Notes under the pieces: generated by a model
The model's database searches: none
The model's input: only the letters and a program-made list of their open reading frames with translations
What the model was told of the DNA's origin: nothing
IMG/VR virus record: IMGVR_UViG_3300045988_126226
Location: 3,035 to 67,034 of that record
Length of the DNA: 64,000 nt
Reading direction: 5' to 3' (one strand)
Origin: a virus
Made by a program: the position numbers and the translations under genes
Shown: positions 4,954 to 5,151 of the stretch, one piece after another
Layout: every line of letters starts with the position of its first letter
How positions within the stretch are numbered: the first letter of the stretch is position 1

Positions 4954-5151
4954 AGCGGCGTTGCGAAGTGGTTAACGCCCGGGACTTTCTCGAAATCAGT
5001 TAAATGGGTTATATGATGTGATGGGTTAAGTAGCATTATATAAGTTCTGTTAGCAGGCTATCGGCTTTATAAATCCGACAATGTTGGTGCAAGTCCAACT
5101 TTTGAGCCCAGACTCCCGTATCGAAGGTTCGAATCCTTCCGCCGCTGCCAC
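4954..5151 (+). tRNA. split tRNA-Gln (anticodon TTG) with a 122-nt tRNA-like insertion (4989-5110) in the anticodon loop; halves sum to 76 nt
   Basis: 5' half 4954-4988: acceptor AGCGGCG, D arm GCG-AAGTGGTTAA-CGC, anticodon stem CGGGA, loop CTTT. 3' half 5111-5151: loop GAC, stem TCCCG, variable TATCG, T arm GAAGG-TTCGAAT-CCTTC, acceptor CGCCGCT (7/7 pairs), G73, CCA. Joined loop CTTTGAC is 7 nt, giving anticodon UUG. Confidence 0.45.
4989..5110 (+). ncRNA. inserted tRNA-like element inside the tRNA-Gln anticodon loop
   Basis: ends pair as an acceptor stem CTCGAAA / TTTTGAG (7 bp with one G-U); T-arm-like GTTGG-TGCAAGT-CCAAC at 5083-5099; C then CCA at 5107-5110; duplicated ATGGGTTA motifs; internal cloverleaf incomplete. 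Confidence 0.35.

What the first reader, a model, noticed from the sequence alone, without database searches (positions are those of the whole stretch)
4954..5151. Second nested case: tRNA-Gln(UUG) split by a 122-nt tRNA-like insertion in the anticodon loop
The 5' segment (4954-4988) gives acceptor AGCGGCG, a D arm, anticodon stem CGGGA and CTTT. The 3' segment (5111-5151) gives GAC, stem TCCCG, a 5-nt variable loop, T arm GAAGG-TTCGAAT-CCTTC, acceptor CGCCGCT (7/7), G73 and CCA. Together they total exactly 76 nt with a 7-nt loop CTTTGAC and anticodon UUG. G73 and A1-U72 fit Gln identity. The insert begins with CTCGAAA, which pairs with TTTTGAG just before a C and CCA at its 3' end. It also contains a T-arm-like hairpin GTTGG-TGCAAGT-CCAAC. 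It therefore looks like a tRNA-like body that RNase P and 3' processing could liberate. This is the same architecture as the Lys case, so it is a recurring feature rather than an accident. It may matter that this is tRNA-Gln in a genome that reassigns TAG to Gln.
Basis: seen in the sequence. Interest (0 to 1): 0.85.

Follow-up and report, generated by a model that had tools for sequence, protein, structure and literature searches.

The report
tRNA-shaped intron inside phage tRNA-Gln
A phage tRNA-Gln gene is interrupted, inside its anticodon, by a 122-base insert that itself folds like a tRNA, and the same "tRNA within a tRNA" design recurs in many unrelated phage contigs, which points to an undescribed kind of tRNA intron probably cut out by the cell's own tRNA-trimming enzymes.

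Summary
Window 4954-5150 is a tRNA-Gln(UUG) gene split between anticodon positions 35 and 36 by a 122-nt insert (4989-5110). One related phage contig carries the same gene uninterrupted at the same site, with the loop CTTTGAC. That fixes the isotype as Gln, not the Glu that ARAGORN calls, and it fixes the exact boundaries.

The insert folds as a cloverleaf: a 7-bp acceptor stem, a T arm, a long arm in the D position and a 4-nt NCCA-type tail. In 12 family members 20 of 38 base pairs show compensatory changes. It is not a group I, group II or bulge-helix-bulge intron, and it matches no Rfam family.

The design is general. I found 61 distinct nested cases in viral contigs, with inserts of 44-135 nt in Gln, Lys, Ile, Asn, Gly, Thr, Glu, Leu and Pro tRNAs. 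In each, the insert runs exactly from acceptor position +1 to four bases past the acceptor stem. The same search pattern gave 1 nested case in 128 matches from cellular genomes against 32 in 124 from viral contigs.

Best model, inferred and not shown: RNase P cuts the 5' junction, an RNase Z-like activity cuts after position 76, and the phage's DraRnl-type RNA ligase (39295-40665) seals the anticodon loop. No paper describing this was found.

The parts
4954..4988 (+). 5' exon of tRNA-Gln(UUG): acceptor 5' strand, D arm, anticodon stem 5' strand CGGGA, and loop bases C32 U33 U34 U35.
   Evidence: ARAGORN with introns allowed, joined halves, orthologue L019.
4989..5110 (+). 122-nt tRNA-shaped intron, running from its own position +1 to position 76.
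   Evidence: Boundaries fixed by the intron-less orthologue. Cloverleaf supported by covariation.
4989..4995 (+). Intron acceptor stem, 5' strand (CTCGAAA). It pairs with 5100-5106.
   Evidence: Helix 1 is 100% paired, with 6 of 7 pairs showing compensatory changes across 12 family members.
4998..5059 (+). Long arm in the D-arm position: a 3-bp closing helix (4998-5000 with 5057-5059) around an extended hairpin. It contains the invariant blocks TTAAATGGGTT and TAAGTTCTGTTAG.AGG.
   Evidence: Helices 2 and 3, and the invariant columns.
5062..5077 (+). Short hairpin in the anticodon-arm position (TCGG CTTTATAA.. CCGA). Its loop is 8-10 nt and variable, so it is not a decoding loop.
   Evidence: Helix 4. 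Loop sequences differ between members.
5083..5099 (+). Intron T arm: GTTGG TGCAAGT CCAAC.
   Evidence: Helix 5 is 100% paired, with 4 of 5 pairs compensatory. The same T arm occurs in ordinary phage tRNAs.
5100..5110 (+). Intron acceptor 3' strand TTTTGAG, followed by the 4-nt tail C-CCA.
   Evidence: In relatives the tail is CCCT, TCCT, CTCT, TCCA or GCCA, and it is always 4 nt.
5111..5150 (+). 3' exon of tRNA-Gln(UUG): G36 A37 C38, anticodon stem 3' strand TCCCG, variable loop TATC, T arm, acceptor 3' strand, G73 and CCA.
25577..25719 (+). Second nested gene. tRNA-Lys(UUU) exons 25577-25609 and 25678-25719 are split after U34 by a 68-nt tRNA-like intron (25610-25677; GATGAAA...TTTCATC A CCA).
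   Evidence: Rfam tRNA hit of 59.9 bits with a 71-nt insert, ARAGORN, and intron-less alleles in L104 and L105.
39295..40665 (+). Candidate exon ligase: an ATP-dependent RNA ligase of the DraRnl/Rnl2 type, with an N-terminal OB domain and the motifs KMHG, EGVVIR and YKHKN.
   Evidence: PHROG 968 'RNA ligase' at 4.5e-64. Pfam RNA_ligase and PHA02142 OB domain. Motifs. Homologues annotated as RNA ligase. Its role in splicing is inferred.
35136..35942 (+). RlaP-type nucleotidyltransferase, a usual partner of RNA ligases in RNA-repair modules. It may take part in end repair.
   Evidence: Pfam RlaP, a weak hit. PHROG 388 nucleotidyltransferase at 7.8e-20. Context from PMC7824862. Any role here is inferred.

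Best explanation
Window 4954-5150 is a functional tRNA-Gln(UUG) gene carrying a protein-dependent, tRNA-shaped intron.

The primary transcript folds as a double cloverleaf. The intron's own 7-bp acceptor stem rises directly out of the outer anticodon loop, and it carries a T arm, a D-position arm and a 4-nt N-C-C-N tail.

Because the intron looks like a pre-tRNA, the host's tRNA end-maturation enzymes would define both splice sites:
- RNase P cuts immediately 5' of intron position +1 (4988|4989). This leaves the 5' exon with a 3'-OH.
- An endonuclease that measures from the acceptor/T-arm helix cuts after intron position 76 (5110|5111). This leaves the 3' exon with a 5'-phosphate. The likeliest candidate is an RNase Z/BN-type activity that cuts after CCA.

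The two exon halves stay annealed through the outer acceptor and anticodon stems. That is the same substrate as an anticodon-nuclease-nicked tRNA. The phage's ATP-dependent DraRnl/Rnl2-type RNA ligase (39295-40665) would seal U35-G36 to give a 75-nt tRNA-Gln. The released 122-nt tRNA-like RNA may have a role of its own, because free-standing copies of it exist.

Shown: the gene anatomy, the exact boundaries, the intron's fold, presence/absence polymorphism, recurrence across phages, and the presence of the ligase gene.

Inferred: that excision and ligation happen at all, and which enzymes perform each step.
For: 1. Exact boundaries and isotype. L019 has an uninterrupted tRNA-Gln with the loop CTTTGAC at the syntenic site. 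Only the cut 4988|4989 ... 5110|5111 regenerates that loop. The spliced anticodon arm GGGACTTTGACTCCCG is the canonical bacterial tRNA-Gln(UUG) arm, seen in more than 120 metagenomic tRNA-Gln genes.

2. The exons are maintained.
- All 19 nested family members, found through an intron-only motif, give an intact tRNA once positions +1 to 76 are removed. Five or more different exon bodies are involved.
- The split loop bases CTTT and GAC are invariant in all 18 Gln alleles.
- The outer acceptor stem shows compensatory change (G5-C68 against A5-T68).
- In the stretches of this phage clade that I examined (the window and the related contigs around both tRNA clusters), the nested genes are the only Gln(UUG) and Lys(UUU) genes among roughly 40 tRNA genes. 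CAA and AAA are the preferred codons.

3. What the introns conserve is what RNase P and RNase Z read. In 61 distinct nested cases of 44-135 nt, the 7-bp acceptor plus 5-bp T arm is always kept and a D arm is usually kept. The anticodon arm is usually lost. The shortest introns (44-45 nt) are bare acceptor/T-arm minihelices. In every full-scoring case that ARAGORN called (7/7 acceptor pairs, 5/5 T-stem pairs) the best-fitting tail is 4 nt.

4. The junction context fits RNase P. The base at -1 is U in 52 of 61 cases. C74 and C75, the bases that pair with the P15 loop of bacterial RNase P RNA, are kept in 58 of 61 tails (CCA 48, CCT 10), while position 76 varies.

5. The splice-site position relative to the outer tRNA varies (after 34, 35 or 36), but it is fixed relative to the intron. 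So the intron, not the exon, defines the sites.

6. The window encodes a ligase that needs 3'-OH and 5'-P ends, together with RlaP and phosphoesterases. A 56%-identical ligase lies about 4 kb from two nested tRNAs in an unrelated contig, L109. Kienbeck et al. found DRB0094-family ligases enriched 140-fold in gut phages of this kind, without an explained role (PMC10879173).
Against: There is no RNA evidence of any kind, so splicing is inferred only from conservation.

No enzyme is known to cut precisely after position 76 when the tail is CCT, TCT, CAA or CTA. Yet those tails are conserved in the closest relatives. RNase Z normally cuts after position 73, and cutting after CCA is documented only for a few enzymes (Thermotoga maritima, E. 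coli RNase BN; recalled from memory).

The host is unknown, so its RNase P and RNase Z properties are unknown.

More than half of the introns start with C+1-G72, whereas RNase P prefers G+1.

The set of 61 was selected partly by requiring an intact outer tRNA. Only the 19-member family test is free of that bias.

The invariant sequence blocks in the 122-nt family, and the free-standing copies (L229, L235), suggest the insert has a function that the intron model does not need.
Confidence: 0.5

Rival explanations
1. The insert is the real product and the outer tRNA is not matured. In this reading a tRNA-like small RNA gene has landed in, or uses as a carrier, a tRNA gene. RNase P and 3' trimming release the 122-nt RNA, and the outer halves are discarded or act as decoys or fragments, for example against anticodon nucleases.
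For: Free-standing copies of the same 120-nt RNA lie just upstream of tRNA-Gln genes in L229 and L235. Invariant sequence blocks persist across members whose stems have otherwise diverged. The window is rich in other tRNA-like small RNAs (YrlA-like hit) and encodes TROVE-like and vault-like proteins. Ordinary 3' exonucleolytic trimming back to the CCA would destroy the 3' exon.
Against: Most nested inserts are degenerate minihelices of 44-70 nt with no conserved sequence, which is hard to read as functional RNAs. The outer exons, including the split anticodon bases, are conserved and covary in every allele. In the stretches examined, the nested genes are the clade's only Gln(UUG) and Lys(UUU) genes. 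Intron-less and intron-containing Lys alleles differ at only 3 exon positions.
Confidence: 0.22
2. The insert is excised by a dedicated, still unknown route. Either it is a new small self-splicing or self-cleaving RNA, or a phage-encoded endonuclease recognises the double-cloverleaf junction.
For: As in group I introns, the 5' exon almost always ends in U. The 122-nt family has an invariant sequence core. Ribozymes abound in this genome: an HDV-like element and a group I-type intron. The window holds many ORFs of unknown function and a PIN-PhoH protein.
Against: Across the 61 introns the only shared features are acceptor, T arm and tail. Some are only 44-45 nt, and no sequence is common to all. 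The last intron base is A or T, never the terminal G of group I introns. No Rfam ribozyme family matches 4989-5110, even at E<=5.
Confidence: 0.15
3. The gene is dead. A tRNA-derived mobile or accidental DNA insertion has inactivated a dispensable phage tRNA gene, and nothing is spliced.
For: Phage tRNA arrays are accessory and turn over fast. Whole tRNA cassettes are swapped between near-identical genomes. Homing-endonuclease genes lie among the tRNAs.
Against: No decay is seen in any of 19 alleles spread over five or more exon bodies. Compensatory changes occur in both the outer and the inner stems. The same precise +1-to-76 rule holds in dozens of unrelated contigs.
Confidence: 0.08
4. It is an archaeal or eukaryal-type intron, cut at a bulge-helix-bulge motif by a splicing endonuclease and joined by RtcB.
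For: It is a small intron in the anticodon loop, and that pathway is protein-dependent.
Against: There is no bulge-helix-bulge. The junction is a 4 x 7-nt internal loop between the anticodon stem and a 7-bp helix, with one cut at the base of the helix and the other 4 nt beyond it. No EndA or RtcB gene was seen among the window ORFs I searched. The ligase that is present needs 3'-OH and 5'-P ends.
Confidence: 0.03

Closest known systems
Group I self-splicing introns in bacterial and phage tRNA anticodon loops (cyanobacterial tRNA-Leu(UAA), Azoarcus tRNA-Ile, Patescibacteria tRNA-Asn and tRNA-Asp)
   Same: They sit inside the anticodon loop. They show presence/absence polymorphism between close relatives. 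The 5' exon ends in U. They co-occur with homing-endonuclease genes, and one such intron is in this window (tRNA-Leu 23503-24354).
   Different: This intron is 44-135 nt, against roughly 200 nt or more. It folds as a cloverleaf rather than P1-P9. It has no terminal G and no Rfam Intron_gpI match. It is presumably not self-splicing.
Archaeal and eukaryal pre-tRNA introns (bulge-helix-bulge, EndA/Sen endonuclease, RtcB or Trl1 ligase)
   Same: They are short, protein-spliced introns in or near the anticodon. The exon halves are held together by the tRNA body and then ligated. Some carry a functional RNA, such as the box C/D guide in the archaeal tRNA-Trp intron (from memory).
   Different: There is no bulge-helix-bulge motif. 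The setting is bacterial or phage. The predicted ends are 3'-OH and 5'-P, not cyclic phosphate and 5'-OH. The recognition element is the intron's own tRNA shape.
tRNA-like processing signals: mitochondrial tRNA punctuation, MALAT1 mascRNA, plant tRNA-snoRNA and herpesvirus tRNA-miRNA transcripts
   Same: A tRNA-shaped module inside a longer RNA directs RNase P and RNase Z to cut on either side of it.
   Different: In those cases the flanking RNAs are never rejoined. Here the flanks are two halves of another tRNA and must be ligated to be of use.
Phage T4 Pnk/Rnl1 repair of anticodon-nuclease-cleaved tRNA-Lys, and DraRnl/Rnl2-type nick sealing
   Same: The proposed last step is the same reaction on the same substrate: sealing a nick in the anticodon loop of an otherwise folded tRNA. 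The ligase is phage-encoded. Lys(UUU), Gln(UUG) and Glu(UUC), which are typical nuclease targets, are the commonest hosts of these introns.
   Different: The break would be made on purpose by processing enzymes at an encoded insert, not by a host defence nuclease.
YrlA / bacterial Y RNAs with a tRNA-like domain
   Same: They are tRNA-mimicking non-coding RNAs of about 110-120 nt encoded next to RNA-repair genes. A YrlA-like element (3031-3152) and a TROVE-like protein are in this window.
   Different: YrlA is circularly permuted relative to tRNA and has a Ro-binding stem. The intron has normal tRNA topology with open acceptor ends, and it gives no YrlA hit.

Membership tests
tRNA-Gln(UUG) (joined exons) | Canonical cloverleaf with a 7-nt anticodon loop once the insert is removed. 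| tested here: met
   ARAGORN scores the joined sequence 118.4 as tRNA-Gln(ttg), 75 nt.
tRNA-Gln(UUG) (joined exons) | Anticodon UUG rather than UUC or others, that is, the correct splice register. | tested here: met
   The uninterrupted syntenic orthologue L019 6437-6513 has the loop CTTTGAC. The other registers give different loops.
tRNA-Gln(UUG) (joined exons) | Gln-type body: weak 1-72 pair, G73, the D arm GCSAAG.GGTWA.GC and the anticodon arm C(A/G)GGA-CUUUGAC-UCC(U/C)G. | tested here: met
   A1-U72 and G73 are present. The anticodon arm is identical to that of more than 120 metagenomic bacterial tRNA-Gln genes. Aminoacylation itself cannot be tested here.
Group I intron | P1-P9 catalytic core, recognised by Rfam Intron_gpI, with a length of about 200 nt or more. 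| tested here: not met
   No Rfam hit on 4989-5110 at gathering score or at E<=5. The insert is 122 nt, and relatives go down to 44 nt.
Group I intron | Terminal G (omega-G) as the last intron nucleotide. | tested here: not met
   The last base is A in the window, T in relatives, and A or T in all 61 cases.
Group II intron | Six-domain structure of several hundred nt, with 5' GUGYG and 3' AY. | tested here: not met
   The insert is 122 nt, starts CUCGA and ends CCCA. There is no Rfam hit.
Archaeal/eukaryal BHB intron | Bulge-helix-bulge: two 3-nt bulges separated by a 4-bp helix, carrying the two cleavage sites. | tested here: not met
   The junction is a 4 x 7-nt internal loop between a 5-bp and a 7-bp helix. 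The sites lie 0 and 4 nt from the helix end.
Archaeal/eukaryal BHB intron | Presence of a splicing endonuclease (EndA) and an RtcB or Trl1 ligase. | tested here: inconclusive
   Neither was seen among the window ORFs scanned. Only 64 kb of a genome of roughly 160-200 kb was examined.
Canonical tRNA (the insert itself) | Recognised by tRNA covariance or heuristic models, with a 7-nt anticodon loop carrying U33. | tested here: not met
   No Rfam tRNA hit on 4989-5110 at E<=5. ARAGORN does not call it. The loop of the anticodon-position hairpin is 8-10 nt and variable.
Canonical tRNA (the insert itself) | A 7-bp acceptor stem stacked on a 5-bp T stem with a 7-nt T loop, followed by N73 and CCA. 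| tested here: met
   Helices 1 and 5 are 100% paired with 10 of 12 pairs compensatory. The tail is C-CCA in the window.
Bacterial RNase P substrate (pre-tRNA-like) | Acceptor/T-arm coaxial helix, an elbow, U at -1, and 3' RCC able to pair with the P15 loop. | tested here: met
   These features are present here, and present or enriched in the 61 cases: U at -1 in 52 of 61, and C74 C75 in 58 of 61.
Bacterial RNase P substrate (pre-tRNA-like) | Actual cleavage at 4988|4989 by RNase P. | not testable with these tools
   This needs an in-vitro cleavage assay or 5'-end mapping.
YrlA / Y RNA | Match to Rfam RF02553: a Ro-binding stem plus a permuted tRNA-like domain. | tested here: not met
   YrlA hits fall at 3031-3152 and 975-1085, not on the intron.

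The most novel reading that the evidence does not exclude
These are a fourth class of tRNA intron, 'tRNA-mimic introns'. Their splice sites would be set by the universal tRNA end-processing enzymes, RNase P at the 5' site and an RNase Z-like cut after position 76. Their exons would be rejoined by phage RNA-repair ligases. This would give the widespread DraRnl/Rnl2-type ligases of gut phages a housekeeping role in tRNA splicing.

Each insert corresponds exactly to a mature tRNA, from +1 to CCA, and it sits at U-rich anticodon positions that anticodon nucleases cut. So these introns may have arisen when a repair ligase stitched a free tRNA between the halves of a cleaved tRNA and the product was copied back into DNA.
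Probability: 0.4. Interest if true: 0.95.

Novelty: categorically new. Interest (0 to 1): 0.9.

Why it matters
Bacteria and their phages are thought to have only self-splicing (group I) introns in tRNA genes. Protein-dependent tRNA splicing is regarded as an archaeal and eukaryal trait.

A widespread family of tRNA-shaped introns would be a new intron class and a new job for RNase P, if host tRNA-maturation enzymes excise them and a phage ligase seals the exons. It would also explain why RNA ligases are so enriched in recoded gut phages.

There is a practical consequence. Standard bacterial tRNA finders miss or mis-call these genes. Here Gln was called Glu and Lys was called Thr, and neither was found without intron mode. 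Phage tRNA repertoires and codon-usage or recoding analyses are therefore biased, precisely for Gln, Lys, Glu and Ile.

The idea is directly testable with a northern blot, junction RT-PCR and three purified enzymes.

Tried and rejected
- GenBank phages, blastn of 4600-5520: only a 58-nt suppressor-tRNA match. It said nothing about the locus.
- Exact 21-mer of the 3' exon in IMG/VR: 0 hits.
- The intron's T-arm 17-mer in IMG/VR: 78 hits, but nearly all were ordinary phage tRNAs with the same T arm. Only the known clade carried the intron.
- Single-sequence folding of the intron: z = -0.5, not distinguishable from shuffles. The fold is supported only by comparative data.
- ARAGORN with a wide intron range produces many false 'introns' that span neighbouring tRNAs. 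I therefore required a 7/7 inner acceptor, a T arm, and an intact outer tRNA after excision.
- ARAGORN's Glu(ttc) and Thr(tgt) calls were rejected using the intron-less orthologues.
It was still useful as proof that the spliced arm is canonical Gln.
- phmmer of the ligase against PDB sequences: no hit.
- Eight of the nine literature searches (tRNA-like, nested and minihelix introns in phages) found no description of this architecture. The theta-ribozyme paper, found in the ninth search, does not contain the word 'intron'.
- RNase III was considered as the excising enzyme and rejected. It gives a 2-nt stagger, whereas the stagger here is 4 nt.
- Origin by deletion from a Gln-X-Gln tandem array was rejected because it would need two precise deletions.
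Full report
**1. The observation**

Reading 4954-5150 on the + strand gives three segments.
- 5' segment, 4954-4988: AGCGGCG-TT-GCGA-AGTGGTTA-ACGC-C-CGGGA-CTTT.
- Insert, 4989-5110: 122 nt.
- 3' segment, 5111-5150: GAC-TCCCG-TATC-GAAGG-TTCGAAT-CCTTC-CGCCGCT-G-CCA.

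The default ARAGORN run and Rfam at gathering score do not report a tRNA here. With introns allowed, ARAGORN finds one tRNA at 4954-5150 with a 122-nt intron, but it calls it Glu(ttc). Joining the halves in all eight possible registers gives good tRNAs with anticodons CAG, TAG, TTG or TTC. The sequence alone therefore does not settle the isotype.

The CCA ends at 5150. The joined tRNA is 75 nt. The variable loop is 4 nt.

**2. Isotype and boundaries**

Two neighbouring ORFs were used as anchors (5737-6099 and 1262-1780). They retrieved about ten related IMG/VR phage contigs of 159-197 kb, two shorter contigs (32 and 65 kb) and one Logan contig.

In L019 the syntenic gene is uninterrupted. It lies between the same upstream Y-RNA-like stem and the same downstream small ORF. 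Its sequence is AGCGACGTTGCGAAGTGGTTAAACGCGCACGGCTTTGACCCGTGTACTCGAAGGTTCAAATCCTTCCGTCGCTGCCA, that is tRNA-Gln(UUG) with the loop CTTTGAC. Moving the cut by one base gives CTTAGAC or CTTTCAC.

The spliced anticodon arm is the canonical bacterial tRNA-Gln arm.

So the outer gene is tRNA-Gln(UUG), and the insert lies between U35 and G36.

**3. The insert**

All other relatives carry a homologous insert of 121-123 nt at the same position, but in different tRNA-Gln bodies (ACGGTCG..., ACGGCCG..., AGTTGTG...).

A motif taken only from the insert (TTAAATGRRTT-N25-45-TAAGTTCTGTT) found further members in IMG/VR.
- Ten further contigs carry it within a tRNA: nine in tRNA-Gln and one in tRNA-Lys(UUU) (L172).
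- Two copies are free-standing, just upstream of tRNA-Gln genes (L229, L235).

Twelve distinct members were aligned. They fold as a cloverleaf with four arms:
- a 7-bp acceptor stem;
- a 3-bp helix closing a long hairpin in the D position;
- a short hairpin in the anticodon position;
- a 5-bp T stem with a 7-nt loop.

In that alignment 97.8% of cells are paired. Twenty of 38 pairs show compensatory change, including 6 of 7 in the acceptor stem and 4 of 5 in the T stem. None of 500 shuffles, and none of the slid controls, comes close (the earlier 8-sequence version is).

The anticodon-position loop is 8-10 nt and variable, so this is not a decoding tRNA. Neither Rfam tRNA nor ARAGORN recognises the insert. 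Two sequence blocks, TTAAATGGGTT and TAAGTTCTGTTAG.AGG, are invariant even where the stems have diverged. I cannot explain them.

The tail after the acceptor stem is always 4 nt. It is not always NCCA: it reads CCCA in the window, and CCCT, TCCT, CTCT, TCCA or GCCA in nested relatives. The free-standing copies have ATCA and ATTT.

**4. A recurring design**

The gene at 25577-25719 is tRNA-Lys(UUU), split after U34 by a 68-nt mini-cloverleaf (GATGAAA...TTTCATC-A-CCA). L104 and L105 carry the same gene uninterrupted, with only three exon differences. Four relatives have an 87-nt tRNA-like insert in tRNA-Pro(UGG), a gene that is uninterrupted in other relatives.

I then searched IMG/VR for two T loops placed 33-37 nt apart with a CCA between them (GTTCRANYC-N12-CCA-N15-19-GTTCRANYC).

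In 32 of 124 matches, a 7/7-paired inner acceptor strand lies upstream. Removing exactly the stretch from that +1 to the CCA leaves an ARAGORN-valid tRNA, with the junction inside its anticodon loop.

The Fisher test gives p = 3e-10.

A detector that does not require a CCA tail found 61 distinct nested inserts in the 2.4 Mb of viral DNA held, against 1 in 0.87 Mb of cellular DNA. Their properties:
- Outer tRNAs: Gln(UUG) 20, Ile(UAU) 12, Lys(UUU) 12. The rest are Asn, Gly, Thr, Leu, Glu, Ile(GAU) and Pro.
- Junction: after position 34, 35 or 36.
- Insert length: 44-135 nt.
- Tail: 4 nt in every full-scoring case where tail length was left free. The last three bases are CCA 48, CCT 10, CAA 2, TCT 1.
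- The base before the insert is U in 52 of 61.
- The first base of the 3' exon is never C.

A few inserts are complete tRNAs: Asn(GUU) inside Lys, and Gly(UCC) inside Asn. Most have lost the anticodon arm. The smallest are bare acceptor/T-arm minihelices.

**5. What it is not**

- Group I or group II intron: no Rfam hit even at E<=5, the wrong size, and no terminal G.
- Bulge-helix-bulge intron: the junction is a 4 x 7-nt internal loop, with cuts at 0 and 4 nt from a 7-bp helix.
- Assembly artefact: the identical locus occurs in an independent Logan assembly, and homologues occur in many samples.

**6. How it most likely works**

What selection has kept in these inserts is the part of a tRNA that RNase P and RNase Z recognise. 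That part is the acceptor stem stacked on the T arm, usually a D arm for the elbow, and C74 and C75. The anticodon arm, which those enzymes ignore, decays. The splice sites are fixed relative to the insert and variable relative to the outer tRNA.

I therefore propose the following steps.
- RNase P cuts 5' of insert position +1.
- A second endonuclease cuts after insert position 76.
- This yields an exon pair with 3'-OH and 5'-P ends, held together by the outer acceptor and anticodon stems.
- An ATP-dependent RNA ligase seals the nick.

The window encodes such a ligase at 39295-40665. The evidence for it is as follows.
- PHROG 'RNA ligase' at 4.5e-64.
- Pfam RNA_ligase (DRB0094 family) plus an N-terminal OB domain.
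- The motifs KMHG, EGVVIR and YKHKN.
- 46% identity to Bacillus phage proteins annotated as RNA ligases.

An RlaP nucleotidyltransferase and three metallophosphoesterases lie nearby. This is a classic RNA-repair gene set (PMC7824862). A 56%-identical ligase sits about 4 kb from two nested tRNAs in the unrelated contig L109. Kienbeck et al. reported a 140-fold enrichment of DRB0094-family ligases in recoded gut phages, without a clear role (PMC10879173).

**7. Evidence that the outer gene is used**

- All 19 nested members of the 122-nt family were found without reference to the exons. Each yields an intact tRNA after excision, and the split loop bases CTTT and GAC are invariant in all 18 Gln alleles.
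- Outer stems carry compensatory changes between alleles.
- In the stretches examined, the clade's roughly 40 tRNA genes cover all 20 amino acids only if the nested Gln and Lys genes are counted.
- CAA and AAA are the preferred Gln and Lys codons.

**8. Weak points**

Nothing here shows RNA. The identity of the 3' nuclease is the main gap, because cutting after position 76 is documented for only a few RNase Z enzymes. The non-CCA tails in the closest relatives are conserved. More than half of the inserts begin with C+1. The free-standing copies and the invariant sequence blocks suggest that the 122-nt RNA may have its own function. The rival explanations (insert as the product, a dedicated unknown excision route, a dead gene) are scored separately in this report.

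**9. Novelty**

Eight of the nine full-text searches, with varied vocabulary, found no description of tRNA-shaped or nested introns in phage or bacterial tRNA genes. The closest papers deal with group I introns, anticodon-nuclease evasion and theta ribozymes. The theta-ribozyme paper came from the ninth search and does not contain the word 'intron'. Within the limits of that library, the architecture appears undescribed.

On the recoding remark: in-frame TAG codons occur in late and homing-endonuclease genes but not in early genes. The tRNA(CUA) at 5414-5503 has a Gln-like acceptor stem and D arm. TAG-to-Gln recoding is therefore plausible. Nested introns occur in many isotypes, though, so I see no specific link to recoding.

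Noticed in passing
window 23503-24354: tRNA-Leu(UAA) is interrupted by a 764-nt insert that holds an HNH-type ORF with in-frame TAGs. It is presumably a mobile group I intron, although Rfam Intron_gpI did not reach threshold. Relatives have this gene uninterrupted or with inserts of 349, 736 or 896 nt.
   Followed up: partly
window 24368-24496: A full-length RAGATH-33 RNA (126.8 bits, E = 3e-26) lies directly 3' of the intron-containing tRNA-Leu.
   Followed up: no
window 5414-5558: A suppressor tRNA(CUA) has a long extra arm and a Gln-like acceptor stem and D arm. It is followed immediately by an HDV-like ribozyme match (5504-5558, 27.7 bits, below the gathering score). This fits the published 'theta ribozymes' found 3' of suppressor tRNAs.
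   Followed up: partly
window 3031-3152; also 1900-1977, 3409-3540, 4783-4953, 25510-25576: A YrlA-like (bacterial Y RNA) element scores 33.5 bits (E = 2e-4). Repeated stems of the form AAGAC.CATACAGCAAT ... GTCTTGT end a few bases before several tRNA genes, including the nested tRNA-Gln.
   Followed up: no
window 28286-29812 and 30761-33259: A TROVE-like protein (DUF2828 + DUF7788, PHROG 'RNA-binding protein') sits next to a Major-Vault-Protein-like protein (MVP shoulder 7e-22, vault repeat). Together with the Y-RNA-like elements, this hints at a phage-encoded Ro-like or vault-like ribonucleoprotein.
   Followed up: no
L001 versus window 3581-6215: A near-identical Logan contig has the same flanks and the same nested tRNA-Gln. 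It carries a different tRNA-Val(UAC) and a different, short-arm suppressor tRNA(CUA), and it lacks the HNH ORF 3871-4608. tRNA genes are exchanged as cassettes.
   Followed up: partly
L107 4326-4883: In one relative the same tRNA-Lys gene is split in the anticodon loop by a 483-nt insert that is almost entirely an ORF (MELNSHFKGEITELQ...). There is no obvious room for a ribozyme.
   Followed up: no
L229 ~11170-11300 and L235 (start of locus): Free-standing copies of the 120-nt tRNA-like RNA, with tails ATCA and ATTT, lie just upstream of tRNA-Gln genes. In L229 that downstream tRNA-Gln itself carries a different, 52-nt minihelix intron.
   Followed up: partly
window 4699-4780: Directly after tRNA-Val there is an orphan T-arm-like hairpin (ATTGG TTCGATT CCAAT), followed by a D-arm-like stretch (TAGTGTAATGGTTGAGCAC). 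It looks like a tRNA fragment or a permuted tRNA-like piece. It is unexplained.
   Followed up: no
window-wide (e.g. 6685-21372 versus 26376-48089): In-frame TAG codons (up to 8 per ORF) occur in structural or late genes and in homing-endonuclease genes, but not in the RNA-metabolism genes. This is consistent with stage-specific TAG recoding.
   Followed up: partly
L323 5964-... (genome contigs): This is the only nested case among 128 pattern matches in cellular genomes: a 71-nt tRNA-like insert in tRNA-Leu(UAA). I did not look up the organism or check for prophage context.
   Followed up: no
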